In this document: piece after piece, positions 4,514 to 47,119 of the stretch
Numbering within the stretch: position 1 is the first letter of the stretch
How the letters are laid out: every line of letters begins with the position of its first letter
Source: Candidatus Minusculum obligatum
GTDB lineage: Bacteria; Patescibacteriota; Minisyncoccia; Phycocordibacterales; Phycocordibacteraceae
Assembly (NCBI GenBank): GCA_002331145.1
Contig: DCYT01000001.1
Coordinates: 90,002 to 154,001 of the forward strand
Length of the DNA stretch: 64,000 nt
Reading direction: 5' to 3'
Notes under the pieces: model-generated
Seen by the model: only the letters and a program-made list of their open reading frames with translations
Told to the model about the DNA's origin: nothing
The model's database searches: none
Position numbers and translations under genes: made by a program

Positions 4514-5270
4514 CTTTATGTTTTTGTAAAAGAAGTTGTCCTGCAGCACTTCTATATGGGCAGTGCTCACAAAGCTCTCCTGACTCTGGAACTTCGTCAC
4601 TATCTAGCGTTTCTTTAATGGCAAGAAGTCGCTCTTCAATCCAATCAGTATTTCCTTCATATGCAATAACATCCATATCGAACTTAAGTTCTGCATCAAA
4701 CTCATCCTCTCCTTTTCTTCCATTTGCATAGACAAAGTATCCAGTATCAGAAACCTTGAATCCATTTTGTCGAAGCAGCCACTGATATACATCCATCTGC
4801 CGCTGGTACTGCTCTCCCCACCTCCCCTCAAGTGTTGGCTTCTCTTCTTTTGAAGTTGCCTTGTAGTCTACAACCATAAGTTCCCCTTCTTTATTTACCC
4901 AAATATCATCAACCGCTCCAAAGATTTCAAAACCAGTTGCCTCGTGGAAATGAGTAACTCCGGTAAAGTTCTCTCGCCATGTTTCTAGATCCTTGTGCTG
5001 GTATGGCACTGCATCAATATCAAACTCCTTCATTAAAGGATGCGGCTCTTCCTTCTCTCTATATGTATCAAACTCTTTCTTTAGAAGTGCGTCTACTGCC
5101 AAGTTAAGTGTAAAGCTTGGCATTCCAGGACGTGCTATCCCATGACGCTGGTCAATATAAAAACAACGAGGACACTCTCCAAAATAATCTATCTTTGTTC
5201 GACTTATTCTATGAGTTTTCTTTTGTCCTGGTGTGTAGTTCCAATTCTTATTTCGTATCTTATATGCCAT
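4494..5270 (-). CDS. Cas4/RecB-like PD-(D/E)XK nuclease with four Cys residues
   Basis: The Cys residues are N-terminal CPRC and C-terminal CEHC. There is a D...E-x-K core (GAVDDIW; LMVVDYK) and a QxxxY motif (GEQYQRQMDVYQW). Confidence 0.65.
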   Translation of the reverse strand: MAYKIRNKNWNYTPGQKKTHRISRTKIDYFGECPRCFYIDQRHGIARPGMPSFTLNLAVDALLKKEFDTYREKEEPHPLMKEFDIDAVPYQHKDLETWRENFTGVTHFHEATGFEIFGAVDDIWVNKEGELMVVDYKATSKEEKPTLEGRWGEQYQRQMDVYQWLLRQNGFKVSDTGYFVYANGRKGEDEFDAELKFDMDVIAYEGNTDWIEERLLAIKETLDSDEVPESGELCEHCPYRSAAGQLLLQKHKDGKVKK

Positions 5271-5273
5271 AGA

Positions 5274-6125
5274 TTATTTTTGCTCTTTATATGGCATTTT
5301 ACCTAAGTGCACAGCTTCCTGCAAAACTTCCTTTATATGATCCTTTGAAAGCCCCAAAGAAAGCACTGCCTCCTTATTCTTTTCCAAATCTTCACAGAGA
5401 ATAATTCCTTTTTGAATAAGAGATTGCTTCTGAGATCTTGAAAGTGTTGTGAGAGTTGTAATGGGAAATACCTCATACTTCATAATCAAATCCAGAAGTG
5501 AATTCTTTTCAGGGTAACTCCATCCAATAATATCGAGCCCCACACACTCAGCATACTCAACAGCATTCTTCGTGAATTTAGTATTTGTAATAAGCAATCC
5601 TTTATTTACCGGACAACTAGATGGATCCTCTGCTCGCTTCTCAAAAATGTCATTCATTCGAGCGTGTACGTAAAGCGCTGTTCGCACATTTGTTTTAAAT
5701 CCAATGCTGTTATGGAACTTCACCTCAACAGCAATACATTCCTCATCATTGCTTGCAACCACATCAAGCTCATGATTAATACACTTTCCAGGAACTACCT
5801 GGCGAAGTTTTGTTTTGTATCCCATCTTCTTATACAAAGCTCCCACAAAATCCTCAAATGGAAATCCTGTAGGTCCCAGATCAAAAAGAGCACGGCGAAG
5901 TGAGTACCTTGCAGCAGTTGGCCTGCTTTCCCTTCGAAGCTCTCTAAAAGCTGTTTTGTAAATTTCTGAGGTTGTAACACCAGATACAGCACCTTCTACA
6001 ACCTCACTTACAATCTGCTTTGCGAGTTTTTCCTCTGCTCCTGCATTTACAAGAGAGTTAATAAGCTTCTCCTCACGAAAGACTTCGCTTGTTCCATCAG
6101 CTTTTGTTACGTAAAAGTCGAGCAT
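5274..6125 (-). CDS. ATP-cone domain fused to a restriction-endonuclease-like (Mrr/PD-(D/E)XK) domain
   Basis: The N-terminus (MLDFYVTKADGTSEVFREEKLINSL) resembles an ATP-cone. The central region (IAVEVKFH...KTNVRTALYV) resembles a Mrr-type REase core. Confidence 0.6.
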   Translation of the reverse strand: MLDFYVTKADGTSEVFREEKLINSLVNAGAEEKLAKQIVSEVVEGAVSGVTTSEIYKTAFRELRRESRPTAARYSLRRALFDLGPTGFPFEDFVGALYKKMGYKTKLRQVVPGKCINHELDVVASNDEECIAVEVKFHNSIGFKTNVRTALYVHARMNDIFEKRAEDPSSCPVNKGLLITNTKFTKNAVEYAECVGLDIIGWSYPEKNSLLDLIMKYEVFPITTLTTLSRSQKQSLIQKGIILCEDLEKNKEAVLSLGLSKDHIKEVLQEAVHLGKMPYKEQK

Positions 6126-14281: not shown

Positions 14282-14371
14282 ATACCTTCATAGTACAAGC
14301 TATATACAAAATGAAAAGCCCACCGTCTGCGTTCTGCAGTTGGTGGACTGTTTTGCGCGCTTTTGCGCGAC

Positions 14372-14842
14372 TTAAAGACTGTTGATCACTTCCAGGTAGC
14401 CTTCACGATTCTGGCGAACCAGATGTTGGATCTGGGTGGTCACATTGTGAATCCGACGACTAGCATCTTCGTGCCGGTCATACGGACCAGAAGACATCGT
14501 CTGAAACCACGTAATGTTGTTCCCGTGGAAATCATATACGTCGAAGTGAATTTCGACTTCTGTACGATTTCCTTCGTGACGATATTCTTGCTTCCGCACA
14601 ACGATGCGGAAGTCATGCCAGTCACCGCAGCTCACAAGGTAAGCGTCGGAGTCTTGAATGATCGCAGCCATTTCTTCCCGAGCGGCAGTGCTGTTCGTTT
14701 CCAAACAGACATACGCTTGAGAAGCGTTTCCATCAGCCCACGAATGTGGGGCGATTTTGGGCGAAACCATGATGATCAGAAAGATGACTGTCGCCACAAT
14801 AGCAAACAGAAAATCTTTTGGGGTCAGTTTTTGAAAGTTCAT
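14372..14842 (-). CDS. Signal-anchored hypothetical protein encoded on a short GC-rich insert
   Basis: The minus-strand ORF has an N-terminal TM segment (FLFAIVATVIFLIIMV) and a sensible composition, whereas the overlapping plus-strand ORF looks like a shadow. Hairpin terminators lie at 14318..14369. G+C is visibly elevated locally. Confidence 0.5.
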   Translation of the reverse strand: MNFQKLTPKDFLFAIVATVIFLIIMVSPKIAPHSWADGNASQAYVCLETNSTAAREEMAAIIQDSDAYLVSCGDWHDFRIVVRKQEYRHEGNRTEVEIHFDVYDFHGNNITWFQTMSSGPYDRHEDASRRIHNVTTQIQHLVRQNREGYLEVINSL

Positions 14843-14900
14843 TTTGCCCTCCCTAGGCAATACCACAACAGACTTTATTATACCATTCCTACGCTTACTG

Positions 14901-23625: not shown

Positions 23626-25170
23626 TTATGATCGATCCTTAAATGTCTTCACGAGCTCAGCTAGCTTCTTTGCAGAATCTTCACTGATCTCTTTATCTTT
23701 CTTGATTGCCTCAAGCACCATTACTCCCTCTCGAGCGAGGAAGGTCTTAAATTCTGCCTCAAGCTCTCGAACCTTTGCAGGATCAACATCATTTAGAAGA
23801 TCATCTCCTGCAGCAAATAGAATTGCAGCAATCTCCTCAAACGGCATAGGAGCTCCCTTATCCTGATTCATAAGCTCAGTCATTCTTCGCCCTGAATCAA
23901 TTCGATCCTTTGTATCTTTATCAAGATCTGATGCAAACTGCGCAAATGCCTCAAGCTCTCTAAACTGAGCAAGCTCAAGTCGCACCGTTCCTGACACCTT
24001 CTTAACCGCCTTTGTCTGAGCTGCAGACCCTACTCGAGATACAGACAGTCCTACGTTAATAGCTGGACGCAGTCCCTTGTTAAAGAGATCTGATTCAAGA
24101 TAAATCTGTCCGTCCGTAATTGAAATTACGTTTGTTGGAATGTATGCAGACACATCATTCTCTTGTGTCTCGATAATAGGGAGTGCAGTAAGAGATCCTC
24201 CTCCCTTATCTTTTGAAAGCTTTGCGGCTCGCTCCAAAAGCCTAGAGTGAAGGTAGAAAATATCTCCAGGATAGGCCTCTCGTCCTGGTGGACGCCGAAG
24301 AAGTAGCGAAAGCTGCCGATACGCTACCGCCTGCTTTGAAAGGTCATCATAGATAACAAGTGCATCTTGCCCTCGATCCATAAAGTACTCTCCAATGGCA
24401 GCTCCAGCGTACGGTGCAAGGTATTGAATAGCAGCAGGCTCAGCAGCAGAAGCGGTAACCACAATGGTGTAATCCATTGCTCCCTTTTCCTCAAGCTCAG
24501 CTACGATACGTGCTGTCTTTGATTCCTTCTGTCCAATAGCAACATAAATACAAATTGGTCGATTCTTTGGAGACTCATTCTTCTGATTAAGAATCGTATC
24601 AATAGCGATAGTTGTCTTTCCTGTATACCTATCTCCAATAATAAGCTCACGCTGTCCTCGACCAATTGGAATCATGGCATCAACCGCCTTAATTCCAGTA
24701 TGAAGAGGAACATCAACTGGAGATCGCTCAATCACAGAGTATGCATCGCGCTCAATAGGGACAAATGTTTTTGCTTTTGTCTTTCCTTTTCCATCTACTG
24801 CTTCAGCCAATGGGTTTAGTACTCGTCCGATAAGCTCATCACCCACAGGGAGTGACAGAAGCCTTCCTGTACGACGAACAAGCATTCCTTCGTACACTGT
24901 ATTGCTCTCCCCTAAAATAGCTGCTTTTACACCATCCTCCTCAAGGTTTAGTACAAGACCGTAAGTTAGAGAATCATCTTTTAGCGCAGCCTCAAGAGAC
25001 CTATCGTGCGTCTTATCAAAGAGCACCATCTCCATCATCATGGCATTTTGCAGCCCTTCGATTTCAACAATACCGTCTCCAGTACTCTTGATGTGACCTA
25101 CTTCCTCCTGATGCTTTACCGGGGTAAAGGTATCAATCTCTTTTTGAATTCTTTTAATAATTGCATCCAT
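23626..25170 (-). CDS. atpA: F1 ATP synthase alpha subunit
   Basis: It has the motif [15 protein letters not shown]. Confidence 0.97.
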
Positions 25171-25171
25171 A

Positions 25172-25528
25172 CTACTTTGTGATATTTCGATAAAGCTCCA
25201 TAAGCGACCTCTTGTAACTTGCGTCAGTTAGCACTCCGTCTTTGAAGTGCTGCCATCCACCGACTAAGTTTGGATCGATGGTCGCACCAACTTTTATTCC
25301 GGCTGCTTTGCGTGCAGCAACAACATCTTTCTTTCTTCCAACAATAAGTGTTTCCTTCCCTTTCTCTGCCCCACCTTTCTTTAAAGAAGCAAGGATTCCT
25401 GGCAAAAGTTTCTCGTGCCTTCTAGCTTTTATATACTTTAAAAACTTTGTAAGGACTTTCCCCTGCTCACTTGCAGTTTTCCCTTCTAGGGATTCTCTTA
25501 GAGCTGCTGCATAGGTGCGTGCATTCAT
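25172..25528 (-). CDS. atpH: ATP synthase delta (OSCP) subunit, unusually short at 118 aa
   Basis: It sits between atpF and atpA. Its N- and C-terminal ends resemble OSCP, but the middle is missing. Confidence 0.6.
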
Positions 25529-25529
25529 A

Positions 25530-25973
25530 TTATTTCTTCTCTAACACCTTCTCTGCTGCAAGGATAGAAAGTTTTGCAATTTCTTTCTCTGCATCCTTTC
25601 GAGCCTTCTTCTCTGTCTCTTTGGCTCGAAGCTCTGCATCTTTTGCAACTTTAGCCGCACGCTCCTCTGCATCTTTAAGAATCTTTCCTCGCTCGTCAGA
25701 TCCCTGCTGCTTTGCAGCAGTTACAACATCGTGCGCCTCAGTCTCGGCAGACTTTAGAATCTCTCCCTTCTTCTCTTCTACATCTTTTCGTATCTCCTCT
25801 GCAGCCTGCGCATCCTTAACACCCTTTGCAATCATCTCCTCTCGTCCACGCAACATAGAAAGCACTGGTTTATACAAGAAAAACCATAGTGCTCCTACAA
25901 GAATTCCAAAATTGATCACCTGCAAAATAAGCAGCCGCCAATCAATTCCAAATGCGTGAAAGAGTTCAGACAT
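25530..25973 (-). CDS. atpF: Fo ATP synthase b subunit
   Basis: It has one N-terminal TM segment followed by a long charged helix. Confidence 0.8.
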   Translation of the reverse strand: MSELFHAFGIDWRLLILQVINFGILVGALWFFLYKPVLSMLRGREEMIAKGVKDAQAAEEIRKDVEEKKGEILKSAETEAHDVVTAAKQQGSDERGKILKDAEERAAKVAKDAELRAKETEKKARKDAEKEIAKLSILAAEKVLEKK

Positions 25974-25976
25974 GAT

Positions 25977-26213
<237 letters not shown>

Positions 26214-26288
26214 CTAAACCTTAATAATTGATGGCCAATTTAAAGCCACGCATCGAATCACCACAATGATCCGATGTGTGGTCTCAAA

Positions 26289-27038
26289 TTAATGAGGCTC
26301 GGCTACTGCAATCTTTATAAAGAAGAGTGTCAGTAAGGCAAAAATTGCTGCCTGTATGAATCCCACAAAAAGCTCAAAGGCTAGAAGTGGAACAGGTACC
26401 AAAAGTGGCACAAATGAAAACACAACGAGAATCAAAACTTTCCCCGCGAAGATGTTTCCAAAAAGACGGAAAGAGAATGAAATCAGCCGTGCTAGTTCAC
26501 TAAAAAGTTCAATGATACCGACAGCAAATGCTAGCGGCGACTTAAAAGTAACAAATTTTCCTCCATACCTCAAAGCACCGAGGGTGATAATTCCAGCAGT
26601 TTCAATTGCAAGGAGTGCAATAATTGAAAGTGCGAGCGTAACATTGAGATCTGTATTGATTGGATAGAAAAATGGAAGGAAGTGTCCATGGTCTTCTATT
26701 CCAATTGCTCCAATAAATGGCAAAAGTCCAAACCAGTTTGCGGTAAGAACAAAAATAAAGATTGTCATTACAAGTGGGAATACCCACGCAACAAGTTTTT
26801 TATCGTATTCGAGTGTCTCTCGAACAAATGAATATGGAAATTCAATGATTCCCTCTACCGCAGCCTGAAGTTTTCCAGGAACAAGCTTTAAATTCCTTCC
26901 CAAAAAGTACGCACTTACAATAAGTAGCGCACTTACAACAATAGTACTCAAAAGCGTGTTGGTAATCGGCAAACCAAAAAGGTGCGTGAGCACCGTTGGT
27001 TCAAGATGAATCGCAATTTCTTTTGCCATTTCGCGCAT
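26289..27038 (-). CDS. atpB: Fo ATP synthase a subunit
   Basis: It is a multi-TM protein with a conserved Arg-containing penultimate helix. It is first in the operon. Confidence 0.85.
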   Translation of the reverse strand: MREMAKEIAIHLEPTVLTHLFGLPITNTLLSTIVVSALLIVSAYFLGRNLKLVPGKLQAAVEGIIEFPYSFVRETLEYDKKLVAWVFPLVMTIFIFVLTANWFGLLPFIGAIGIEDHGHFLPFFYPINTDLNVTLALSIIALLAIETAGIITLGALRYGGKFVTFKSPLAFAVGIIELFSELARLISFSFRLFGNIFAGKVLILVVFSFVPLLVPVPLLAFELFVGFIQAAIFALLTLFFIKIAVAEPH

Positions 27039-27074
27039 CAGTTTAACATGTACAGAACGTATGAGAAGTGGACA

Positions 27075-27112
27075 AAAAGCGAAAAATCCCCGGTAATACC
27101 GAGGATTTTTCT
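27075..27112 (-). terminator. Rho-independent terminator separating the DUF378 gene from the atp operon
   Basis: The stem aaaatcc...ggatttt has a 13-nt loop. A T-run follows on the minus strand. Confidence 0.6.
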
Positions 27113-27129
27113 AAAAGCAAAATTAGATG

Positions 27130-27324
27130 CTATTTCTTCATGAACATGTTGAAAAGCATGTACAGTGCTGAAATTCCTACGAGAATATATACAATATTCG
27201 CGATATTTCCTGCACCAAAAATCATTTCTACCAAGTTAAGGTTTGCAGCACCGATAAGTCCCCAGTTGATACCTCCAACGAAAACTAAAATGTATGCAAT
27301 CCAATCGAGAGCGTTCATTCGCAT
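27130..27324 (-). CDS. DUF378 family small membrane protein
   Basis: It has the signature WIAYILVFVGGINWGLIGAANLNLVEMIFG. The start is set at the internal Met. Confidence 0.65.
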   Translation of the reverse strand: MRMNALDWIAYILVFVGGINWGLIGAANLNLVEMIFGAGNIANIVYILVGISALYMLFNMFMKK

Positions 27325-27417
27325 ATGCGTTATGTGAATTTCCGGTAATACGACCACATATATTTTATCACGCAAGCACTAGAGCCTCATTTTGTCTAGA
27401 AAAGGAGGTGTATAACC

Positions 27418-27885
27418 CTAATTTAGGAAAAATAGACTTGCATTGAGGTATGTTGCAAACAACACCCAAAGTAAATACGGAATGAGAATAACTCCAGCAA
27501 TCTTTGAGATTTTGTAAAATCGCCTAATTATCTCTAGAAGCATCAAGTCTAGGATGATAATTACACCAAGTGCTAATCCTATATTCTGTTCTCCAAAGAA
27601 AATGATAGACCACGAAGCATTAACAAAGAGATGTGTGAAGAATAATGCCAATGCCCTTCTATAATTTTCACCCTTACTCTTCCAGACAAGATATGAGCTA
27701 ATACCCATAAGTGTGTAGAGAGTTGTCCAAACAGGACCAAATACCCAACTTGGAGGATTAAGTGCTGGTTTTATAAGAAAATCATACCAAGAATCAATAT
27801 TTGGCACTGTTGCGAAACTTCCTAAAATTCCAGCAGCTTGAGCTACAAGAATAAAGAAAAGAAGAATTACTGCTTGTTTAATCAT
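27418..27885 (-). CDS. TspO/MBR family tryptophan-rich sensory protein
   Basis: It has five TM segments and W-rich motifs (PPSWVFGPVWTTLYTLMG). Confidence 0.8.
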   Translation of the reverse strand: MIKQAVILLFFILVAQAAGILGSFATVPNIDSWYDFLIKPALNPPSWVFGPVWTTLYTLMGISSYLVWKSKGENYRRALALFFTHLFVNASWSIIFFGEQNIGLALGVIIILDLMLLEIIRRFYKISKIAGVILIPYLLWVLFATYLNASLFFLN

Positions 27886-27888
27886 GCA

Positions 27889-28464
27889 TTAAGTATACTT
27901 CTGTACTTCTTTCCTACGGAAACAATCAACAGAATGATCATTTACCATTCCTGATGCCTGCATATGTGCATAGACAGTAGTTGGTCCTAAGAATTTAAAT
28001 CCTCGCTTTTTTAAATCTTTTGCAAAAACGTCTGATTCTTTTGTTGTTGCAGAATAATCTTCTATCTTCTTTATATTGTTTTGTATTGGCTTCCCCCCTA
28101 CAAAACTCCACATGTACGTATCAAAGGTCCCGAATTCCTCCCGAATTTCCAAAAACTTCTTTGCATTGTTTATTGCAGACTCAATCTTTGCTCTATTTCG
28201 AATAATAGAGGAGTCTTGCAGCATTCGCTCCACATCTTTTTCTGTTAGCTTTGCAACTTTCTTTGGATCAAAGTTTTTAAAGTTTTTTCTATACCCATCT
28301 CTCTTTTTGAGTATTGTCTCCCAAGAAAGTCCTGCTTGTGCACTCTCAAGAGTTAGGAATTCAAAAATCTTATGATCATCATGCAATGGTACTCCCCATT
28401 CAGTATCATGGTATTCAACATAGAAATCTTTTTCGAGTGGTACCCAAGGACAACGCTTTTTCAT
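27889..28464 (-). CDS. tag: DNA-3-methyladenine glycosylase I
   Basis: The match CPWVPLEKDFYVEYHDTEWGVP...FEFLTLESAQAGLSWETIL starts at MKKRCPW, where the start is set. Confidence 0.85.
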   Translation of the reverse strand: MKKRCPWVPLEKDFYVEYHDTEWGVPLHDDHKIFEFLTLESAQAGLSWETILKKRDGYRKNFKNFDPKKVAKLTEKDVERMLQDSSIIRNRAKIESAINNAKKFLEIREEFGTFDTYMWSFVGGKPIQNNIKKIEDYSATTKESDVFAKDLKKRGFKFLGPTTVYAHMQASGMVNDHSVDCFRRKEVQKYT

Positions 28465-28521
28465 AAAGCATATAGTATCAAATATTAGAAAACACACCCC
28501 TGAAGGTGTGTTTTCCGCTTT

Positions 28522-28551
28522 TGTGGAGCAGTTAGGAGCTGGTTGGAATCT
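28522..28551. repeat. Repeat R1, carrying the Ra arm only (tgtggagcagttaggagctggttggaatct)
   Basis: It is identical to the right halves of R2 and R3. Confidence 0.7.
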
Positions 28552-28555
28552 ATAT

Positions 28556-28584
28556 TTGACAGTATCTAATATATACGTTATAAT
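28556..28584 (+). promoter_or_regulatory. Consensus sigma70-type promoter (TTGACA, 17-bp spacer, TATAAT) driving the small peptide gene
   Basis: The -35 element is at 28556-28561 and the -10 element at 28579-28584. An AAGGAGGTG Shine-Dalgarno sequence at 28606-28614 lies 9 nt before the ATG at 28624. Confidence 0.6.
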
Positions 28585-28623
28585 CAATAAGAATTTTAGA
28601 AGGGAAAGGAGGTGTAAATACTT

Positions 28624-28791
28624 ATGCCCTTCAATAAAGATTCTTCGGGAGAATTTCGTCATTCTTCCAGCGGGGTCATTTTGGCCATAACAGCCATTCT
28701 TGCCCTCATAATTATACTTGGCATCGCAAACCTTCCTCTTTTCTTAGAGGAATGGCGAGCTGAGAACTACGCATATTCCGAACAAAAATAA
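28624..28791 (+). CDS. A 55-aa single-TM peptide, MPFNKDSSGEFRHSSSGVILAITAILALIIILGIANLPLFLEEWRAENYAYSEQK. It is a candidate type I toxin-like or small membrane protein.
   Basis: It is not in the ORF track because it is shorter than 60 aa. It has a perfect promoter, a strong SD and its own hairpin terminator. Confidence 0.5.
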   Translation: MPFNKDSSGEFRHSSSGVILAITAILALIIILGIANLPLFLEEWRAENYAYSEQK

Positions 28792-28829
28792 CAACAAGGA
28801 CATGCGTGCCAAGAAACTGTTCACAACTT

Positions 28830-28864
28830 GCCACCCGCACATAATAGTGGGTGGCATATTTTAT
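28830..28864 (+). terminator. Rho-independent terminator for the small peptide gene
   Basis: The stem gccaccc...gggtggc is followed by atattttataat. Confidence 0.6.
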
Positions 28865-28878
28865 AATGTGCTCCGTTT

Positions 28879-28931
28879 GTTTTTTGGATAAATCCAAACT
28901 TTGTGGAGCAGTTAGGAGCTGGTTGGAATCT
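28879..28931. repeat. Repeat R2 (La+Ra): tttttggataaatccaaactttgtggagcagttaggagctggttggaatct
   Basis: It is near-identical to R3. It contains the dyad TTGGATAAATCCAA. Confidence 0.75.
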
Positions 28932-28932
28932 T

Positions 28933-29355
28933 TTAGCTCTGAGGAGAAATAAAATGATTATAAACTGGATACACTTGCGCAGAAATTACTTGTGAAATCA
29001 TACTTAGTTGAGCTGGTTTAATTTGCTCTCTCATTTCAAGGATTTTTTCATATGAAAAGAACTCACAGGCTGCAGTCTCTACACCATCTGAAGTTGGCTC
29101 CCCACTTTCAATGTGAGCATCAAATAAAATTACGATTCCTTGAGTCTTTTTTTGAGAAAAAATGCCAAGTAATTGCCCAAGTTTAATACCACAACCTGTC
29201 TCTTCTTTAACTTCCCGAACTAACGCATCAGGCATAAGTTCTTGGAAATCGGGACCTCCTCCTGGCAAAGTCCAGAGCTGCTGACGAGTTACATCCTTAA
29301 CGAGAAGAATTTTATCCTCTTTGTTCTTTATAAAAGCAAATACTCCTACATCCAT
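28933..29355 (-). CDS. NUDIX hydrolase
   Basis: It has the Nudix box (GGGPDFQELMPDALVREVKEETG). It is precisely bracketed by R2 and R3. Confidence 0.85.
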   Translation of the reverse strand: MDVGVFAFIKNKEDKILLVKDVTRQQLWTLPGGGPDFQELMPDALVREVKEETGCGIKLGQLLGIFSQKKTQGIVILFDAHIESGEPTSDGVETAACEFFSYEKILEMREQIKPAQLSMISQVISAQVYPVYNHFISPQS

Positions 29356-29373
29356 TAATGTAAGAGTATCAGC

Positions 29374-29426
29374 TTTTTTTGGATTTATCCAAACTTTGTG
29401 GAGCGGTTAGGAGCTGGTTGGAATCT
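29374..29426. repeat. Repeat R3 (La+Ra)
   Basis: The sequence tttttttggatttatccaaactttgtggagcggttaggagctggttggaatct differs from R2 at two positions. Confidence 0.75.
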
Positions 29427-30366
29427 ACAGGAACATAAAGAGACCTCCTTTTGTACCATCTAAATTAATTTCATAAATAGCAAACTCTTCTTTGGGCCCT
29501 GGCATACCTGGAGAACCGCTTGGCATACCTGCCATGCCAATACCTTTTATGGGAGGTCGCTCCGCAAGGAGCTTCTGCACAGCTTCTTCAGGAACATGAC
29601 CTTCGACCACATACCCTCCAATCGTCATGGTGTGACAGCTTCCAAGTTCACTTGGGACGCCAAACTGCTCTTTTATAGCAATAAGCTCATCTGTATTTTC
29701 TGCAACCACATCGTACCCTTTACCTTGGAGGTGTGCGACATACCCTGAACAACATCCACATGTGGGTGATTTATATACAGTTGCAATAACATCTTTTGCC
29801 TCAATCATCGCAGATTCACTAGAGCTAATCTCCCGATAAATGTCTCGCATTAAATTAATCTCTTCTGATTGATTTACGATAATTGCGTTAGCAAGAGTCA
29901 TTATCTCCTCGTACTTTGCAACAGGAAGCACAGTTTGTGCCATCATAATTGCACCCATGTGATGCATGGTCATGTCATGAAGAAATATACGGTCAAGAGG
30001 TTCTCCTGAAAGAGATTCAAGCTCTCGCATCATTGGCATATATACACCCTGATCCACATACTCCTCCCCATACCACGTCTGGTAATTTTCCTTCATTTGC
30101 GCAACCTCTTTTGTTTGTGTTGAGATAATGTTTTTTGAGAGAGAAACCATTCGCTCCACAGTCCCTCCTCGCTCAAGAACCTCTTGTGCTGTAGAAATAG
30201 CCTCTTCATGATGAGGAATCATATGCTCCAAAAACTCACGTTCATTTGAGAAGTTTGGAACCATCGCATGCTGTACCTGCTGTTTTTCAGTAAAAGAATT
30301 ATCCAGAAATAAAACTGCTACGGCGACTACAACTCCTCCTAAAAGAATCAATCCTGCTTTTTTCAT
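29425..30366 (-). CDS. Secreted or anchored DUF305 (ferritin-like, MIPHH...HHMGAI) fused to a DUF411/CopG-like Cys-rich metal-binding domain. It is a copper-homeostasis-type protein.
   Basis: The N-terminal domain has HxxH/HH motifs (MIPHHEEAI; MTMHHMGAIMMAQ). The C-terminal domain has TCGCCSGY...GSCHT...GMPSGSPGMPG. Confidence 0.7.
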   Translation of the reverse strand: MKKAGLILLGGVVVAVAVLFLDNSFTEKQQVQHAMVPNFSNEREFLEHMIPHHEEAISTAQEVLERGGTVERMVSLSKNIISTQTKEVAQMKENYQTWYGEEYVDQGVYMPMMRELESLSGEPLDRIFLHDMTMHHMGAIMMAQTVLPVAKYEEIMTLANAIIVNQSEEINLMRDIYREISSSESAMIEAKDVIATVYKSPTCGCCSGYVAHLQGKGYDVVAENTDELIAIKEQFGVPSELGSCHTMTIGGYVVEGHVPEEAVQKLLAERPPIKGIGMAGMPSGSPGMPGPKEEFAIYEINLDGTKGGLFMFL

Positions 30367-30426
30367 AGTTTCCCAATTCTACACTAATGAACAAAAGACG
30401 TTAAATTCATTTGCTACACTGTATGC

Positions 30427-30879
30427 ATGAATAATTATAGAAATCTTCTTTTTTCAATTGTGACAAGCTTTTTGGTGATGTACGCGCTTACCTATATTGC
30501 CGTATATACGTGGGGCGATATCTCTATCTTTAGCACCCGAAGCTTATACATGGCAATGATCATGATTGCTCCAATGATCATGATCATGATCATTTTTATG
30601 GGAAACATGTATAAAAACAAACAACTAAATATGAAGCTCTACGCATTTAGTGTTGGTTTATTTTTCATTTCTCTTTTTTTTATACGTGGACAAGTATTCG
30701 TAAATGACACACAATTCTTGCGTTCAATGATTCCCCACCACTCAAGTGCAATTACTATGTGCCGAGAAAGCTCTCTTTCTGACCCAGAGGTTATTGAACT
30801 TTGTGAGAGTATTATTACCGCTCAGCAACAAGAAATAGATCAGATGAATTCTATTTTGAAACGGCTAAAAGATAATTAA
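30427..30879 (+). CDS. Membrane protein with a DUF305-type domain
   Basis: It has three N-terminal TM helices, then MIPHHSSAITMCRE...ELCESIITAQQQEIDQM. It is divergent from the preceding gene. Confidence 0.6.
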   Translation: MNNYRNLLFSIVTSFLVMYALTYIAVYTWGDISIFSTRSLYMAMIMIAPMIMIMIIFMGNMYKNKQLNMKLYAFSVGLFFISLFFIRGQVFVNDTQFLRSMIPHHSSAITMCRESSLSDPEVIELCESIITAQQQEIDQMNSILKRLKDN

Positions 30880-30920
30880 AGTTTTAGCCAAAAAGAAAAC
30901 CTAGCAGTTGCTGGAATTTC

Positions 30921-30976
30921 TTTTTTTGGATAAATCCAAACTTTGTGGGGTTGATCGGAAGTTAGGTCGAACTTTT
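30921..30976. repeat. Repeat R4 (La+Rb hybrid): tttttttggataaatccaaactttgtgg | ggttgatcggaagttaggtcgaactttt
   Basis: Its left half equals R2/R3 and its right half equals R5. The switch point is at GTGG. Confidence 0.75.
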
Positions 30977-31066
30977 CTGAGCTTTGTGAGGAAGCTTCAG
31001 AGAGCTGACGAAAAGGCGCGGAAACCTCTCAAGGGCCTAGACGTCGACGATTGCTAATCGATCCAA

Positions 31067-32707
31067 CTAATGCGTCTGGGCAGCTTGAACCTTTCGCACT
31101 CTCTCCCAAAACGTCTCGTATGCCTCCCCAGCCCACTCGCTACGATACTCATCCGCCTGTGCAATCCAGTTTTGAGCTTCGGTACGAATTGGTTGCTCCA
31201 ACGCTAAAAGCTCCAACTGGGCTTGCAAACCTATCGAGGTCGTTTTCATCCATTGAAACGGAGAGTCTGTAAGTGTGCGATACATGACTGCTTTGGCACA
31301 CTCATCCATCACCGCAATGAACTCCTCAACTGAGGGATTCTTCTGAGCAGCAAGTAGCCGCACTTCGGCGATGTTTTTCCTCACCATCGCCCACTCGTAT
31401 GGAGCGGTCTTCTCAGTCCACCAGCGTTCAGTTTTTTCGTATTTTTCTTTGGCGGCATCAGCGTGCGAAAGCTCGCCGGAACGCCCCATCATCTCTTTGT
31501 GATAGTTTCCGTAATTATTGTAGACCTTCGGACAGAGCATGAAGCTCCGATAGTCCGACCCGTCCAGCTCGATCGAAAGCGCGTCATCAAGCGCACGCTT
31601 TGCCCCTTCGAGAAACTCGGGATCGCTTGTGAGTTGATATTTTCGAATGTGCGTTATTGCTGCATTGTTATAAGCATCCGCGGCCACCAACGCATCATCC
31701 CCAGCAAGCTCGGTTGTTAACTGGAACAAATCGCTCGCCCGATTAAGCTGAGTGATATCTCCACGCTCTCCCAAACGTCGATATGCTAGCCCCAGCGCGT
31801 TGGCCATTTCATGATTGAAATTTGAAGAGCTTTCAAATTTTTCCAGAACGCCGATCGCCTGCGATAGTCCATCTGTATCCGATGATCGCGTGCTGATTTC
31901 CTGGACGATATTGGCCATCGCCGCGACGCTGTTAGGATCTAGTTCAAAATCACCTTCGGAGATCCGGTCGACAACATCGGTAAGTCGCTCGATACGGTTC
32001 TCGATGCCGTAGCAAATCAGTCCTGATTGGAGGTACTTGTAGACTGCCTCATCTCGCTCGACAGCGGTGAGCTCTTCTGAATGATCGAGCACATAATCCA
32101 AATCACGATGCGCCCTCAGAAATTCCTGTCTACTGAAGTGTTGGTTCGCGGTATCAAATTTGGTTTGGATTAGATTCATATGCTCATTGGAACGGTTCCC
32201 GACGCTAGGCGCGTCACCGGTCAATGCCGGCAAAGTTTTTTCCAGCAGCTCAAGCTTTGCGAGCTCGTCTACGAGAGCAAGGTTCTGCTGAGCCATCGCT
32301 GAAAAAATGTCGCTGAAAATTGATTCTGGCAATCCTAGCCGATCGGCTGCCTGAATACGTGGAGACACCACCAACTCTGGAAATATCACGTTTAAATTTG
32401 CGATGTTATAGGTTTTGTTCTTCTCAACAAAGTCACCACCAGCCACCTTGGATTCGTCGTGGACAACTCCATCCTTTGAAACATTTCCCAGGATACCGGC
32501 AGAGACATCTCCCCCGGCTGCCACACCATGCTTGCTAGCGCGTTGAGTTGGCTGGTTGGACTTGTAAATCAAGTATGCAGCTAGGGCCGCGGCAACCAAA
32601 AAGAGGCCACCGACCACAACCAAACCTCGGATGCCGAAACTCCTGAAGAATTCTAACACATCGCTTTGCTGTAGAAATTCTAGCATGTAGCTCTCCGCAG
32701 ACTTCAC
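31067..32707 (-). CDS. Membrane-anchored hypothetical protein (GC-rich cargo, helical repeat-like)
   Basis: The 546-aa ORF has an N-terminal TM segment (LVVVGGLFLVAAALAAYLIY). Its composition is clearly more GC-rich than the host. Confidence 0.55.
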   Translation of the reverse strand: MKSAESYMLEFLQQSDVLEFFRSFGIRGLVVVGGLFLVAAALAAYLIYKSNQPTQRASKHGVAAGGDVSAGILGNVSKDGVVHDESKVAGGDFVEKNKTYNIANLNVIFPELVVSPRIQAADRLGLPESIFSDIFSAMAQQNLALVDELAKLELLEKTLPALTGDAPSVGNRSNEHMNLIQTKFDTANQHFSRQEFLRAHRDLDYVLDHSEELTAVERDEAVYKYLQSGLICYGIENRIERLTDVVDRISEGDFELDPNSVAAMANIVQEISTRSSDTDGLSQAIGVLEKFESSSNFNHEMANALGLAYRRLGERGDITQLNRASDLFQLTTELAGDDALVAADAYNNAAITHIRKYQLTSDPEFLEGAKRALDDALSIELDGSDYRSFMLCPKVYNNYGNYHKEMMGRSGELSHADAAKEKYEKTERWWTEKTAPYEWAMVRKNIAEVRLLAAQKNPSVEEFIAVMDECAKAVMYRTLTDSPFQWMKTTSIGLQAQLELLALEQPIRTEAQNWIAQADEYRSEWAGEAYETFWERVRKVQAAQTH

Positions 32708-32765
32708 TCAGAAGTAGCACGGGCATTTATCAAACGCACTTTGTGCGAACCTACGAGGGAAGAAC

Positions 32766-32935
32766 TGGGGATAAAGAACTAGCGCCTGAGAGATTATCTC
32801 AAGCGCTTGCTCGAACGATGTTTCGATCACGACTCTGCTGTGCCGTGAAATCTACTGGCCTGGTCACACGGCTCGTGTGCAAATTTCCAAGCCTTGACGT
32901 TAGTGGGGTTGATCGGAAGTTAGGTCGAACTTTTT
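32766..32935. repeat. Long direct-repeat copy 1 plus R5 (Lb+Rb). It is a diverged duplicate (~80%) of the ~140 bp immediately 3' of tRNA-Ala. The identical 30-nt core is ctcgtgtgcaaatttccaagccttgacgtt.
   Basis: It aligns with 33909..34049: tggggataaaga...ttcgatc...ggtcacacgNctcgtgtgcaaatttccaagccttgacgtt(a/g)gtgg. It is followed by the Rb arm shared with R4. Confidence 0.7.
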
Positions 32936-33000
32936 GGAAGTTCATCGAGAAGCAGCATCAGCTCGAAGGTAGGCAGCGCAGCGAGGGTAGATCTTGACTC

Positions 33001-33843
33001 CTAAGCCGAAGCTTCGTCCGGCTCGAACCCTTCAAATTCAATGATGATGAAGATCTTCTTTCCTAGATCAACGCGATCGATCTCAACCTGAAACGAATGT
33101 TCGGTGAGGTTTTGAATGTAGCCGGCATGATCGACATCAGATGGCTCAAATATCTTGTCCGCATCCCAGAACTGGGTCTCGCCACCGTCCTCTTTGACCC
33201 GAATTCGTTCGATTTTACGATCCGCGCTGACTTCAACCCGAAGGTTTCTGCACGGCGTTAGAGACGCGACCGTGATTGATTTCTGGTATGGCCCCTCACC
33301 TTTAGGAAACAAGTAGCTGTACGAATGAGTATAGACATCCCCTGCATAGATCGGCTTGGGAGGTTTCCAGTACACATTGTAAGCGTCGGGACGAGGTTGT
33401 TCCGTCTTGTCGATGGTTGCGTCAGATGTCTTGTAGCGCATGTCATCAAAAGACAATCCGACAGAACCGAACAGCGTATCAACCAGCTCCTCAGACGTCG
33501 CATCGCGATGGAATAACATGGTCTTGTCACAGCCTACGTTCCGCGATCCGTCCTCGTTGAAATGCCAACGCTGAACAACGTCATTGTAAACAAATGACGC
33601 TTTTTCGTGTCGGTTGTATGTGGTGCGAACGTCAAACATAAACCATGCTAAGAAGATAAGTAAAATCAACCATATAATCGTGGATCCCGCAAGGAACGCG
33701 AGGCTCGGCCCTCCGGTCTCGGACAAAAAGAGAATAGCTTGAACAAGTGCGATAGCTGTGAGAAAGAGCGCCACAATTGCAGCTGCGGTTTTTCTTGGCC
33801 GCAGTGCGCGCTGTACGAGAATGCTCTCAATGCGCCTCCACAT
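33001..33843 (-). CDS. Membrane hypothetical protein (GC-rich cargo)
   Basis: The 280-aa ORF has two N-terminal TM helices. It lies between the two long direct-repeat copies. Confidence 0.5.
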   Translation of the reverse strand: MWRRIESILVQRALRPRKTAAAIVALFLTAIALVQAILFLSETGGPSLAFLAGSTIIWLILLIFLAWFMFDVRTTYNRHEKASFVYNDVVQRWHFNEDGSRNVGCDKTMLFHRDATSEELVDTLFGSVGLSFDDMRYKTSDATIDKTEQPRPDAYNVYWKPPKPIYAGDVYTHSYSYLFPKGEGPYQKSITVASLTPCRNLRVEVSADRKIERIRVKEDGGETQFWDADKIFEPSDVDHAGYIQNLTEHSFQVEIDRVDLGKKIFIIIEFEGFEPDEASA

Positions 33844-33908
33844 CCTACGCGACCTTTCTCAGACCCACACGGCTTCAACGATAAACTGTTCACCTCATTC
33901 TTCGCAAT

Positions 33909-34049
33909 GTGGGGATAAAGACAATCGCCCAAGGTTTCACCCTGGGCGATTGTCGCTTCGATCTATCGATCGCGACTCTACTGAGCCGCGATTTTCACCA
34001 GCTTGGTCACACGTCTCGTGTGCAAATTTCCAAGCCTTGACGTTGGTGG
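33909..34049. repeat. Long direct-repeat copy 2 (the native tRNA-Ala 3' flank). It includes a hairpin (caatcgcccaaggtttcaccctgggcgattg) that is the likely tRNA terminator.
   Basis: See copy 1. It abuts or overlaps the tRNA 3' end. Confidence 0.7.
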
Positions 34050-34118
34050 ACTCGAGAGGAATCGAACCCCCGACCTCCTCAGTGCAAGTGAGGCGCTCTA
34101 GCCAACTGAGCTACGAGC
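34043..34118 (-). tRNA. tRNA-Ala (anticodon UGC) with an encoded CCA
   Basis: The minus-strand read is GGGCTCGTAGCTCAGTTGGCTAGAGCGCCTCACTTGCACTGAGGAGGTCGGGGGTTCGATTCCTCTCGAGTCCACCA. It has a G3:U70 pair, the anticodon loop CTTGCAC, and a T-loop TTCGATT. The T-stem contains two G-U pairs. Confidence 0.9.
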
Positions 34119-34141
34119 CCGTAAATGAGAGAATACAAGAC

Positions 34142-46480: not shown

Positions 46481-46990
46481 TTAGGCGGCTTCGGTCTGCC
46501 GAGGCTCGGTCTGAGCCGGACTGGTCGTCGTCTGAACCGTGAAGCCGCGGCGCTCGATGATATCGTCCACGACTTTCGAAACAGCGTTCTTGGCCGCCGA
46601 ACGATCGCCCAGGATGGTGCCGGTGAGGAAGTCGTAGACATCCTCATGACCCTTCGCCGCGAGATCTTCGATCACCTCGTTGAAGAGATCGTTGATCGCC
46701 GTAGAGTGATTGATCGCGAGCATCACCATCGACTGGGAGAATTCCGCGTCGGTCGTGAAGCGGGCCGTCAGCTCTTCCATCGAGACCGTGCCCTGACCCA
46801 GGGTCGCCCAGACGTCTTCAGCGAATTCCGGTTCGGAAGCTTCGATCGTCGGCGCGGTCGAAAGCGAAAGAACCGTAGCGAGCTTCAGAACGACTTCCGG
46901 GCCCTGGGCCGTAGCGTTGATCTGAGCGACGGCCGGCGTATTCAGAGCAGCGATGCAGACTGCAGTCAAAGAAAGAACAGTGCGCTTCAT
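46481..46990 (-). CDS. Secreted hypothetical protein on a GC-rich insert
   Basis: It has a signal peptide (MKRTVLSLTAVCIAALNTPAVAQ) and high local G+C. I recognise no domain. Confidence 0.5.
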   Translation of the reverse strand: MKRTVLSLTAVCIAALNTPAVAQINATAQGPEVVLKLATVLSLSTAPTIEASEPEFAEDVWATLGQGTVSMEELTARFTTDAEFSQSMVMLAINHSTAINDLFNEVIEDLAAKGHEDVYDFLTGTILGDRSAAKNAVSKVVDDIIERRGFTVQTTTSPAQTEPRQTEAA

Positions 46991-47119
46991 TTGGAATTCC
47001 TTTTCCATTTGAAAACTCGACTTTCGTCGAGTACCTGAACCATTTCAGGAATCAAGAAGATACCAGTATTAAAATATATGTCAAGGGGCAATTACAATAC
47101 TGCAATTGCCCCTAGAAAT

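What the first reader, a model, noticed from the sequence alone, without database searches (positions are those of the whole stretch)
28520..34120. Array of single-cargo cassettes 3' of tRNA-Ala, separated by hybrid att-like repeats that all switch arms at a GTGG core
Seen in sequence: five repeat junctions are R1 28522, R2 28879, R3 29374, R4 30921 and R5/long repeat 32766-32935. A sixth junction is the native tRNA-Ala 3' end at 34043. Each junction is a left arm, then (T)GTGG, then a right arm, and adjacent junctions share arms pairwise. R2 and R3 are La+Ra, R4 is La+Rb, R5 is Lb+Rb, and the tRNA junction is Lb+Rc, where Rc is the reverse complement of the tRNA acceptor/T-arm. Right arms Ra, Rb and Rc resemble one another (GTTAGG...TCGAAC/TGGAATC). 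A 30-nt perfectly conserved core (ctcgtgtgcaaatttccaagccttgacgtt) is embedded in ~80%-identical 140-bp copies of the tRNA 3' flank. Segments between junctions each carry one or two genes. These are a promoter-equipped 55-aa TM peptide, a NUDIX hydrolase, a DUF305-DUF411 protein plus a DUF305 protein, a 546-aa protein and a 280-aa protein. Composition is heterogeneous: AT-rich for the first three segments and GC-rich for the last two. Inference: repeated site-specific insertions into the tRNA-Ala 3' end generated hybrid attL/attR-type sites. This would be a decayed tandem island or an integron-like accretion array, with the integrase now absent in cis. An 11-mer of the same tRNA end (gttggtggact) recurs at 14339..14349 beside another GC-rich insert.
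Basis: partly seen in the sequence, partly recalled or inferred. Interest (0 to 1): 0.8.

Follow-up and report, generated by a model that had tools for sequence, protein, structure and literature searches.

The report
Swappable gene-cassette array beside tRNA-Ala
Next to a tRNA-Ala gene in a tiny marine bacterium (Patescibacteria) lies a row of one- or two-gene cassettes separated by conserved ~55-bp recombination sites; related genomes carry different cassettes at the same spot and some carry a serine recombinase there, so this is a working gene-swapping platform, similar in spirit to an integron or the staphylococcal SCC island but built differently.

Summary
Five cassettes (380, 495, 1547, 1958 and 1143 nt) lie between the Tag glycosylase gene and tRNA-Ala(UGC). 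They are separated by two-armed junctions that change arms at T-N-GTGG, the reverse complement of the tRNA acceptor end. The repeats occur nowhere else in the 64-kb window, and an independent assembly reproduces the locus.

Eight related lineages have different contents at the same tRNA-Ala site:
- two essentially empty sites;
- arrays of two to at least nine cassettes;
- two islands whose tRNA-proximal gene is a large serine recombinase (LSR) with an ORF that runs across the core.

Cassette D recurs, with its own arms, at another array position. Its arm type also occurs in an unrelated GC-rich contig, again abutting an LSR ORF. No tyrosine recombinase was found, and the sites do not fold like integron attC sites.

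Best reading: an array built by site-specific accretion of recombinase-less cassettes, mobilised in trans, most likely by LSRs. That makes it SCC/CIME-like at integron scale. LSR catalysis is inferred, not shown.

Details that do not hold:
- Lb is a cassette arm, not the native tRNA flank.
- The 11-mer at 14339 is at chance level.
- The LSR at 63316 is only 25% identical to the tRNA-Ala-associated one.

The parts
34044..34120 (-). tRNA-Ala(UGC), the anchor of the array. Its CCA, discriminator and last two acceptor bases (+ strand TGGTGG, 34044-34049) form the shared core.
   Evidence: ARAGORN; Rfam tRNA model 66.8 bits
33905..34045 (-). Lb arm of cassette E, the tRNA-proximal junction Lb|Rc. 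It comprises a 30-nt invariant block (34015-34044) and a structured leader of about 110 nt that ends in a long hairpin followed by TTTATCCCCA.
   Evidence: identical 30-mer in L010 junction J4
32903..34045 (-). Cassette E (1143 nt, GC about 0.50): Rb arm, 280-aa membrane-anchored protein of unknown function (33001-33843), Lb arm.
32766..32935 (+). Junction R5, Lb'|Rb. GTGG at 32903.
30945..32902 (-). Cassette D (1958 nt, GC about 0.50): Rb arm, 546-aa protein (31067-32707; called as 539 aa elsewhere), Lb' arm. The same unit is bounded by Lb and Rb at a different array position in UBA3533 (L010). It is also present in L007.
30880..30976 (+). Junction R4, La(long)|Rb. GTGG at 30945. The La here carries two hairpins.
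29398..30944 (.). Cassette C (1547 nt): DUF305-DUF411 protein (29425-30366, minus strand) and DUF305 protein (30427-30879, plus strand). The same gene pair is the terminal unit of the locus in L027 and L026.
29375..29426 (+). Junction R3, La|Ra. GTGG at 29398.
28903..29397 (-). Cassette B (495 nt): NUDIX hydrolase (28933-29355).
28880..28931 (+). Junction R2, La|Ra. GTGG at 28903.
28523..28902 (+). Cassette A (380 nt): consensus promoter (TTGACA, 17-nt spacer, TATAAT; 28556-28584), 55-aa transmembrane peptide (28624-28791) and terminator hairpin (28829-28856).
28488..28551 (+). Junction R1, L0|Ra. This is the distal end of the array. L0 is a terminator-like hairpin just upstream of the Tag glycosylase gene (27889-28464, minus strand).

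Best explanation
**What it is.** The locus is a tandem array of small integrative cassettes, built by site-specific accretion at the 3' end of tRNA-Ala(UGC). The host is a marine Patescibacteria genome close to Wolfebacteria/UBA3533.

**Cassette anatomy.** In tRNA-sense orientation each cassette starts with a P' arm and ends with a 28-nt P arm. The P' arm is La (a TTGGATnnATCCAA hairpin) or Lb (a 30-nt invariant block plus a structured leader). The P arm is GATTCCAAYCA-N12-YCCAC (Ra/Rd types) or GTTCGA-N18-CCAC (Rb type). A circular cassette would therefore carry one P|P' site of about 55 bp.

**How the array forms.** Recombination at a short core (YCCAC-N-A, spanning the acceptor end, the discriminator and the CCA) joins the circle to the tRNA end or to an existing junction. 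Every junction in the array is then the P arm of one cassette fused to the P' arm of the next. That is exactly the La|Ra, La|Rb, Lb|Rb, Lb|tRNA pattern seen here.

**Likely catalyst (inferred).** The most likely enzyme is a large serine recombinase supplied in trans. LSR-bearing elements with the same arms occupy the tRNA-proximal slot in relatives. The window's five cassettes have no recombinase of their own, like ACME/COMER beside SCCmec, or like CIMEs. The empty site in relatives is tRNA|La, and cassette P' arms are La-like. The tRNA-proximal junction probably therefore stays competent for further insertions.

**What is shown and what is inferred.**
- Shown: the discrete units, the arm switching at the core, the variation in cassette content and order between relatives, and LSR genes at the junctions.
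- Inferred: that LSRs catalyse the exchanges, and the position of the crossover dinucleotide (somewhere in GTGG).
For: 1. **Junction pattern.** The junctions and their exact repeats are confined to the locus.
2. **Variation between relatives.** The same Ddl / tRNA-Ala ... Tag / TspO / ATP-synthase locus holds different contents.
   - Nothing but one gene: L006 (GrpB) and L022 (308 aa), where the junction is tRNA|La(long).
   - Three units: L024.
   - Two units: L027.
   - At least nine single-gene cassettes of 370-1183 nt: L026.
   - Six different small cassettes: L007, whose flank is 95% identical to the window.
   - An array of more than 11 kb: L005/L010.
3. **Cassette D is a discrete unit.** In L010 it is bounded by Rd|Lb and Rb|La. 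In the window it is bounded by Rb|Lb and La|Rb. The sequence switches exactly at GTGG.
4. **LSR genes sit at the junctions.**
   - In L005/L010 the gene next to the tRNA is a 520-aa LSR (Resolvase 7e-33 plus Zn_ribbon_recom). Its last 18 codons are tRNA antisense. Its element ends in an Ra arm identical over 28/28 nt to the window's Ra.
   - A 56%-identical LSR has the same arrangement in L016.
   - In the unrelated GC-rich contig L017, three Rb/Lb-type junctions flank a homologue of the D protein. The third junction lies inside the 3' end of another LSR ORF.
5. **Fixed site geometry.** All 22 Ra/Rd arms and all 8 Rb arms are exactly 28 nt from the distal hexamer to CCAC. This holds across genomes whose Ddl is only 58% identical.
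   - That length is about the 25-bp attP half-site of serine integrases.
   - The distal hexamers GATTCC and GTTCGA also occur in the tRNA arm, 10 and 6 nt closer to the core. This recalls the shift of the zinc-ribbon-domain (ZD) binding motif toward the centre of the site in attB relative to attP (PMC3783163).
6. **Short shared core.** Only 4-5 nt are shared between all partners, and the flanking position N varies. This fits a 2-nt serine-recombinase crossover better than a 6-8-nt tyrosine-recombinase overlap.
7. **No tyrosine recombinase.** None appeared in the window ORFs that were checked. None appears in the gene tables of any related locus.
Against: - No LSR of the tRNA-Ala-associated clade lies in the 64-kb window. 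The LSR at 63316 is only 25% identical.
- Five of the eight arrays show no recombinase within the DNA held.
- The junctions have no significant dyad symmetry around the core (P 0.29-0.98).
- The distance from CCAC to the La hairpin varies by 3-5 nt. That is loose for a protein half-site.
- The similarity between the LSR-side arm (Lz) and La is not significant (P=0.14).
- Canonical serine integrases recombine only attP with attB. Insertion at internal junctions, and cassettes A and B lying distal to C, need either relaxed specificity (as in CcrAB) or extra processes such as homologous replacement.
- No circular form or empty-site read was examined.
Confidence: 0.6

Rival explanations
1. The cassettes are moved by a different, still unidentified recombinase encoded elsewhere in the genome. 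Candidates are a tyrosine recombinase acting like an integron integrase, or a single-strand HUH/Y1 enzyme that reads the La hairpin and cuts after CCAC. On this view the LSR elements are just further passengers that happen to target the same tRNA end.
For: - Most arrays have no LSR in the DNA held: the window, L007, L024, L026 and L027.
- Each cassette begins just after a CCAC and ends in its own CCAC, with a subterminal hairpin on one side. This is reminiscent of IS200/IS605 ends.
- The spacing between the hairpin and the core is variable.
- The junctions show no dyad symmetry.
Against: - The LSR element in L010 ends in exactly the same 28-nt Ra arm as the small cassettes.
- LSR ORFs cross the core in three independent contexts and two arm families.
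- The right arms have no hairpin, and the sites do not fold like attC.
- No tyrosine recombinase or TnpA-like gene appeared in any locus (and the gene tables).
Confidence: 0.2
2. The junctions are inert relics of past insertions, or are conserved terminator/insulator modules. On this view present-day differences between genomes arise from deletion, duplication and homologous recombination between the 50-60-bp repeats and the conserved flanks, with no ongoing site-specific exchange.
For: - La(long) contains terminator-like hairpins followed by promoters.
- A truncated Ra lies next to Tag in L007, which shows that deletions happen.
- Seven contigs of 0.2-1 Mb carry the same proteins, and no alternative neighbourhood was displayed for them.
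Against: - The 28-nt geometry and the distal and core blocks of the arms are conserved in genomes whose Ddl is only 58% identical, while the cargo is entirely different. This implies selection on the sites themselves.
- Arm switching falls exactly at the core in every hybrid junction.
- The same arm family occurs in an unrelated GC-rich host.
- Intact LSRs are present at junctions.
Confidence: 0.12
3. This is a classical tandem tRNA island or tycheposon-type accretion made by tyrosine integrases. The integrase genes would since have decayed, and Ra/Rb would be degraded partial tRNA copies.
For: - Tandem integrations at tRNA genes with partial tRNA repeats and degenerate elements are well documented (bioRxiv 10.1101/2020.12.28.424599).
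- The right arms carry T-loop-like hexamers.
Against: - No tyrosine integrase or fragment of one was seen in nine loci.
- Identity with the tRNA is limited to 4-7 nt plus one hexamer at a shifted distance. It is not a contiguous 3' tRNA segment.
- The arms are conserved as 28-nt units, not as decaying tRNA copies.
Confidence: 0.05

Closest known systems
Staphylococcal cassette chromosome (SCC/SCCmec) composite islands and their tandem recombinase-less cassettes (ACME, COMER, defence cassettes), mobilised by the large serine recombinases CcrAB/CcrC. Source: bioRxiv 10.1101/2023.03.17.533233, read.
   Same: - The array sits at the 3' end of one conserved gene.
- An att site lies at every junction.
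- One recombinase-bearing element lies beside cassettes that have none and are moved in trans.
- The recombinase is an LSR.
- Cargo includes defence and metal-tolerance genes.
   Different: - The target is a tRNA-Ala acceptor end, not rlmH.
- The host is a Patescibacteria genome of about 0.6 Mb.
- Cassettes are much smaller (220 nt to 2 kb, mostly one gene) and can number nine or more.
- Sites are about 55 bp with two long conserved arms, in at least two interbreeding arm families.
- The LSRs are single genes whose ORF spans the core.
- Mobility has not been demonstrated here.
Integron cassette arrays, including CALINs (clusters of attC sites lacking an integron integrase).
   Same: - The scale and logic match: many single-gene cassettes separated by conserved sites of 50-60 bp.
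- The array is anchored at one fixed chromosomal point.
- Content differs between close relatives.
- Many arrays have no recombinase nearby.
   Different: - There is no IntI-type tyrosine recombinase.
- The sites do not fold as attC hairpins.
- The crossover is at GTGG, not at G|TTRRRY.
- Genes lie in both orientations and often have their own promoters.
- The anchor is a tRNA end, not attI.
Site-specific accretion of ICEs/IMEs with CIMEs (cis-mobilisable elements), and tandem tRNA islands such as tycheposons. Sources: PMC5704250 listed; bioRxiv 10.1101/2020.12.28.424599 read.
   Same: - Successive integrations occur at one att site.
- Newer elements push older ones away from the target.
- Integrase-less derivatives remain flanked by att sites.
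- The setting is marine, streamlined genomes.
   Different: - Those systems mostly use tyrosine integrases, with contiguous partial-tRNA repeats of 15 nt or more.
- Their elements are kilobases long and carry replication or transfer modules.
- Here identity with the tRNA is about 5 nt, the units are minimal, and the only recombinases seen are LSRs.

Membership tests
Integron | IntI-type tyrosine recombinase gene next to the array, with attI | tested here: not met
   No Phage_integrase hit in the window ORFs that were checked. None appears in the gene tables of the related loci. The anchor of the array is a tRNA end.
Integron | attC sites: imperfect palindromes that fold as a single-strand hairpin spanning the site, with R''/R' boxes and a crossover at G|TTRRRY | tested here: not met
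   Single-stranded DNA folds give only the 6-bp La hairpin (free energy -3.5 to -5.7 kcal/mol, z-score -1.1 to -2.4). The arms switch at GTGG.
Integron | Array of mostly single-ORF, promoterless cassettes in one orientation | tested here: inconclusive
   Single-gene cassettes are present: window cassettes A, B, D, E and nine in L026. Orientations are mixed, however, and cassette A has a 12/12 consensus promoter.
SCC-like LSR composite island | Large serine recombinase encoded by at least one unit of the array | tested here: inconclusive
   Met in relatives L005/L010 and L016, and in L017 for the b-type arms. Not met in this window's array. The window's LSR at 63316 is only 25% identical.
SCC-like LSR composite island | Insertion at the 3' end of one conserved gene, with an att repeat at every junction and recombinase-less cassettes present | tested here: met
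   The target is the tRNA-Ala acceptor end, not rlmH.
SCC-like LSR composite island | Recombinase-dependent excision and circularisation of cassettes | not testable with these tools
   This needs raw reads, PCR or a recombination assay.
Serine-integrase att sites | Sites of about 40-50 bp, half-sites of about 20-25 bp, and only a short common core around a 2-nt crossover | tested here: met
   Conserved arms are 23-30 nt, the right arms are fixed at 28 nt, and the common core is YCCAC. The comparison figures come from PMC3783163.
Serine-integrase att sites | Imperfect dyad symmetry of each site about the crossover | tested here: not met
   The best dyad scores are not above those of shuffled sequences (P 0.29-0.98).
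Tyrosine-integrase tRNA island / tycheposon | Tyrosine integrase, plus direct repeats that are contiguous copies of the tRNA 3' part | tested here: not met
   No such integrase was found. Identity to the tRNA is 4-7 nt at the core plus one displaced hexamer.
REP/MITE-type dispersed repeat | Copies scattered at unrelated loci across the genome | tested here: not met
   All copies lie inside the array, both in the 64-kb window and in the loci of the relatives. Whole genomes were not scanned.
IS200/IS605-type single-strand transposon | Y1 TnpA gene and subterminal hairpins at both ends | tested here: not met
   No TnpA gene was found. A hairpin exists only in the La arm, and none in Ra or Rb.

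The most novel reading that the evidence does not exclude
A family-wide, integron-scale gene-cassette platform in Patescibacteria. It is anchored on the acceptor end of tRNA-Ala and driven by large serine recombinases acting in trans on 55-bp two-armed sites. The P arms imitate the tRNA T-loop and acceptor end at a displaced distance. One arm family (Rb/Lb with its structured leader) is shared with LSR elements in unrelated GC-rich bacteria. If so, this is an independent invention of the integron principle on serine-recombinase chemistry, and a route for cross-phylum gene flow into ultra-small genomes.
Probability: 0.4. Interest if true: 0.8.

Novelty: new variant of a known kind. Interest (0 to 1): 0.62.

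Why it matters
Patescibacteria have tiny genomes of about 0.6 Mb and are thought to have few mobile elements and little capacity for gene exchange. This locus behaves as a dedicated slot where single accessory genes are swapped between close relatives. The cargo seen includes metal-handling DUF305/DUF411 proteins, NUDIX, acetyltransferase, methyltransferase, defence ATPases and unknown membrane proteins.

If serine recombinases do the swapping, three things follow:
- It would be a compact, naturally modular LSR system with defined sites of about 55 bp.
- It would have several cross-reacting arm families, which is of interest for understanding LSR site recognition and as a source of new integrases.
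- It would show that the "one anchor, many cassettes, recombinase in trans" design has evolved outside integrons and staphylococcal SCC.

Tried and rejected
- **Viral contigs.** Scans for the Lb core, Rb and Ra gave no hits.
- **Rfam.** Only the tRNA was found, both on the window (gathering thresholds) and on the locus (E-value up to 5).
- **attC-like folding of junctions.** Rejected.
- **Dyad symmetry around the core.** Not above shuffled sequences.
- **An inverted TCCAAAC/GTTAGGA motif noticed by eye.** Dropped for the same reason.
- **Whole-arm similarity** between Ra, Rb and the tRNA arm, and between the LSR-side arm and La. Not significant.
- **The 11-mer at 14339.** It is part of a terminator hairpin and at chance level.
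- **A 12-mer (ACCAACGTCAAG) at 63134-63145, upstream of the window's LSR.** About 0.34 matches are expected by chance and the GTGG core is not intact. It was treated as chance.
- **The window's LSR as the catalyst.** It is only 25% identical to the tRNA-Ala LSR and 23% to the L017 LSR.
- **L008 from the metagenome scan.** A chance 20-mer match inside an LptD-like gene.
- **Exact-protein look-ups** for the Tag gene and the 546-aa ORF as I delimited them. Nothing was found because the gene calls use different starts.
- **An internal junction in L016** at about 8654. Plausible but not established.

Full report
**1. Checking the observation**

tRNA-Ala(tgc) lies at 34044-34120 on the minus strand. 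To its 3' side there are five further junctions, each a left arm, then T-N-GTGG, then a right arm:
- R1: GTGG at 28523, L0|Ra.
- R2: 28880-28931, La|Ra.
- R3: 29375-29426, La|Ra.
- R4: 30922-30973, La|Rb.
- R5: about 32766-32935, Lb|Rb.
- The tRNA junction itself: Lb|tRNA.

The arms match only inside this locus in the 64-kb window, and none is expected by chance. The 30-nt Lb block is exact at 32872-32901 and 34015-34044.

Start-to-start spacings define five units of 380, 495, 1547, 1958 and 1143 nt. Pfam confirms the NUDIX, DUF305-DUF411 and DUF305 proteins. The 546-aa, 280-aa and 55-aa products have no hit. The 55-aa peptide sits behind a perfect TTGACA/17-nt spacer/TATAAT promoter. GC content rises from 0.375-0.413 (28-31 kb) to about 0.50 (31-34 kb).

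An independent JGI contig (L003) is 100% identical over window 24000-33987. The array is therefore not an assembly artefact.

**2. The locus in relatives**

The flanking genes (UvrABC, CARDB and Ddl on one side; Tag, TspO, DUF378 and ATP synthase on the other) identify the same locus in other marine Patescibacteria. The GTDB hits are UBA3533 and Ca. Wolfebacteria NORP156. The content between tRNA-Ala and Tag differs in every lineage.

| Locus | Relatedness to the window | Content between tRNA-Ala and Tag |
|---|---|---|
| L006 | Ddl 85% | tRNA fused directly to La(long), a two-hairpin flank, then GrpB. An essentially empty site. |
| L022 | Ddl 89% | tRNA fused directly to La(long), then one 308-aa gene. 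An essentially empty site. |
| L024 | Ddl 84% | NUDIX, methyltransferase and HD units, separated by two Rd'\|La(long) junctions |
| L027 | Ddl 76% | A SWEET plus Ddl-like unit, one Ra\|La junction, then the DUF305 pair next to Tag |
| L026 | Ddl 58% | At least nine single-gene cassettes of 370-1183 nt, separated by conserved sites |
| L007 | Flank 95% nt identical | Six different small cassettes, some non-coding, between Tag and cassette D |
| L005/L010 | Ddl 98% | More than 11 kb, including an LSR element |

The conserved site in L026 reads GATTCCAACCACCTCCACACCGCTCCAC|AGACTTTGGATTTATCCAAAA.

Cassette D is bounded by Lb and Rb in both the window and L010, but it sits at a different position in the array. 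In L010 its Lb is joined to an Rd arm, in the window to an Rb arm. The sequences part exactly at GTGG.

**3. Which arm is native**

In L006, L022, L024, L026 and L027 the tRNA is followed by La. In L005 it is followed by the end of an LSR gene. Only in the window is it followed by Lb. Lb is therefore the proximal arm of cassette E, not the native tRNA flank. The native attB is most simply tRNA|La(long).

Whether CCA is encoded depends on the adjoining arm. It is encoded in the window, L005 and L022. It is not encoded in L006, L024, L026 or L027. This places the exchange at or next to the discriminator.

**4. The recombinase**

In L005/L010 the gene next to the tRNA is a 520-aa large serine recombinase (Resolvase 7e-33 plus Zn_ribbon_recom).
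- Its ORF crosses the core, and its last 18 codons are tRNA antisense. Joined to Ra, as in a circle, it would encode 513 aa.
- The 6.3-kb element also carries an AriA/PtuA/OLD-like ATPase.
- The element ends in an Ra arm identical over 28/28 nt to the window's Ra, followed by La(long).

A 56%-identical LSR has the same arrangement at tRNA-Ala in the more distant L016. That island holds a second LSR.

The D protein has only three relatives in the protein database. One of them, at 39% identity, lies in GC-rich contigs that carry conjugation-type genes (L017-L019).
- Three junctions of the Rb/Lb type (GTTCGA-N18-CC(C/T)AC, then an Lb-like leader) flank it.
- The third junction lies inside the 3' end of another LSR ORF.

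LSR ORFs thus span the core in three contexts and for both arm families. No tyrosine recombinase was found in the window ORFs that I checked. None appears in any gene table.

**5. Site anatomy**

- All 22 Ra/Rd-type arms from six genomes have the same 28-nt geometry: GATTYYAAYYA-N12-YCCAC. All eight Rb-type arms are GTTCGA-N18-CCAC, also 28 nt.
- GATTCC and GTTCGA are overlapping hexamers of the tRNA T-loop region. In the tRNA itself they lie 18 and 22 nt from the end of CCAC. In the cassette arms they are therefore displaced outward by 10 and 6 nt.
- For serine integrases the attP half-site is 25 bp. The zinc-ribbon-domain (ZD) motif lies 5 bp closer to the centre of the site in attB than in attP (PMC3783163). 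The resemblance is suggestive only.
- The common core is no more than YCCAC, and the next base varies. This suits a 2-nt serine-recombinase crossover better than a 6-8-nt tyrosine-recombinase overlap.

Against this reading:
- There is no significant dyad symmetry.
- The CCAC-to-hairpin spacing varies from 3 to 5 nt.
- Whole-arm similarities (Ra-Rc, Rb-Rc, Ra-Rb, Lz-La) are not significant.
- The sites do not fold like attC.

**6. Mechanism proposed**

A circular cassette carries one P|P' site. Recombination at the core with the tRNA end, or with an existing junction, inserts it. Each junction is then the P arm of one unit fused to the P' arm of the next, which is the observed pattern.

Cassette P' arms are La-like, as is the empty site. 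The tRNA-proximal junction probably therefore remains a usable target, so units accumulate. LSR-bearing units would supply the enzyme, and the others are moved in trans.

Under strict proximal insertion the order of arrival in the window would be A, B, C, D, E. However, the DUF305 pair is the terminal unit in L026 and L027, whereas A and B lie beyond it in the window. Exchange at internal junctions, or homologous replacement, must therefore also occur.

LSR catalysis, the crossover position and ongoing activity are all inferences.

**7. Comparison with known systems**

- **SCC composite islands.** These are the closest working analogue. CcrAB mobilises tandem recombinase-less cassettes flanked by att sites (bioRxiv 10.1101/2023.03.17.533233).
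- **Accretion with CIMEs, and tandem tRNA islands such as tycheposons** (PMC5704250 listed). These share the accretion logic.
- **Integrons.** The array matches these in scale and logic, but it fails their defining tests: no IntI, no attC fold and a different crossover.

Literature searches found no description of such arrays in Patescibacteria, or of tRNA-Ala-anchored LSR cassette arrays. The library is not exhaustive.

**8. Verdict**

- Lb is a cassette arm.
- The 14339 match is at chance level.
- The 63316 LSR is probably unrelated to the array.

I rate it a new variant of a known kind. My confidence is about 0.9 that this is a site-specific cassette array with real turnover, and about 0.6 for the full LSR-in-trans model.

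Noticed in passing
window 59390-64000: GC-rich island (GC 0.52-0.57) that starts just after a TfoX_N gene. It carries a CBASS-type oligonucleotide cyclase (59510-60832, PADLOC E 8e-192, SMODS plus AGS-C), an HTH regulator (62218-62601) and a large serine recombinase that starts at about 63316 and runs off the window. It is probably a separate LSR-borne defence island.
   Followed up: partly
window 32763-32905 and 33905-34046 (minus strand); L010 1935-2078; L017 8255-8392 and 9682-9819: The Lb arm is a conserved structured element of about 140 nt. It has a 6-bp CACACG/CGTGTG hairpin, a GGCTCAGTAGAGTC hairpin, and a long terminal hairpin with compensatory changes (9 pairs among 5 sequences) followed by (G)TTATCCCCA. 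It lies upstream of unrelated genes (280 aa, 546 aa, 79 aa, P0122) in hosts of about 41% and about 55% GC. It has no Rfam match. It could be a leader or regulator, or part of the att site.
   Followed up: partly
L007 6098-6449, 6450-6716, 7327-7549: Three mini-cassettes of 220-350 nt. They are GC-rich, have no convincing ORF, and each has a strong GC hairpin next to its right arm. They could be small-RNA or remnant cassettes.
   Followed up: no
window 34044-34049, compared with L006, L022, L024, L026 and L027: Whether tRNA-Ala has a genomically encoded CCA depends on which arm is joined to it. ...TCCACCA occurs in the window, L005 and L022. ...TCCACAAA or ...TCCACAC occurs in the others. Insertions therefore rewrite the tRNA 3' tail.
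   Followed up: partly
window 63134-63145: A 12-mer, ACCAACGTCAAG, identical to the tRNA-end/Lb joint lies 170 nt upstream of the window's LSR gene. About 0.34 such matches are expected by chance, and the CCAC core is not intact. It is probably a coincidence.
   Followed up: partly
window 46481-47008: A 175-aa signal-peptide ORF with GC 0.52 and no Pfam hit is wedged between UvrB and Tgt in a genome of about 0.42 GC. Hairpins lie on both sides. A 178-aa ORF occupies the same place in L024.
   Followed up: no
window 14282-14900: A 164-aa ORF (14372-14866, GC 0.48, no Pfam hit) lies directly downstream of YchF and is followed by two terminator hairpins.
   Followed up: yes
L016 4440-11505: In a more distant relative the tRNA-Ala island is 7 kb long and has two outward-facing LSR genes (536 aa and 521 aa). 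Its distal junction (TTTTTGTGTGGACCTGACTATAGCAAGTTGGAACG) lies next to a tRNA-Pro(CGG) terminator. A possible internal junction lies at about 8654.
   Followed up: partly
window 4494-6125: Adjacent PD-(D/E)XK/Cas4-like and ATP-cone plus Mrr_cat restriction-endonuclease-like genes. They are possible defence genes, unrelated to the finding.
   Followed up: no
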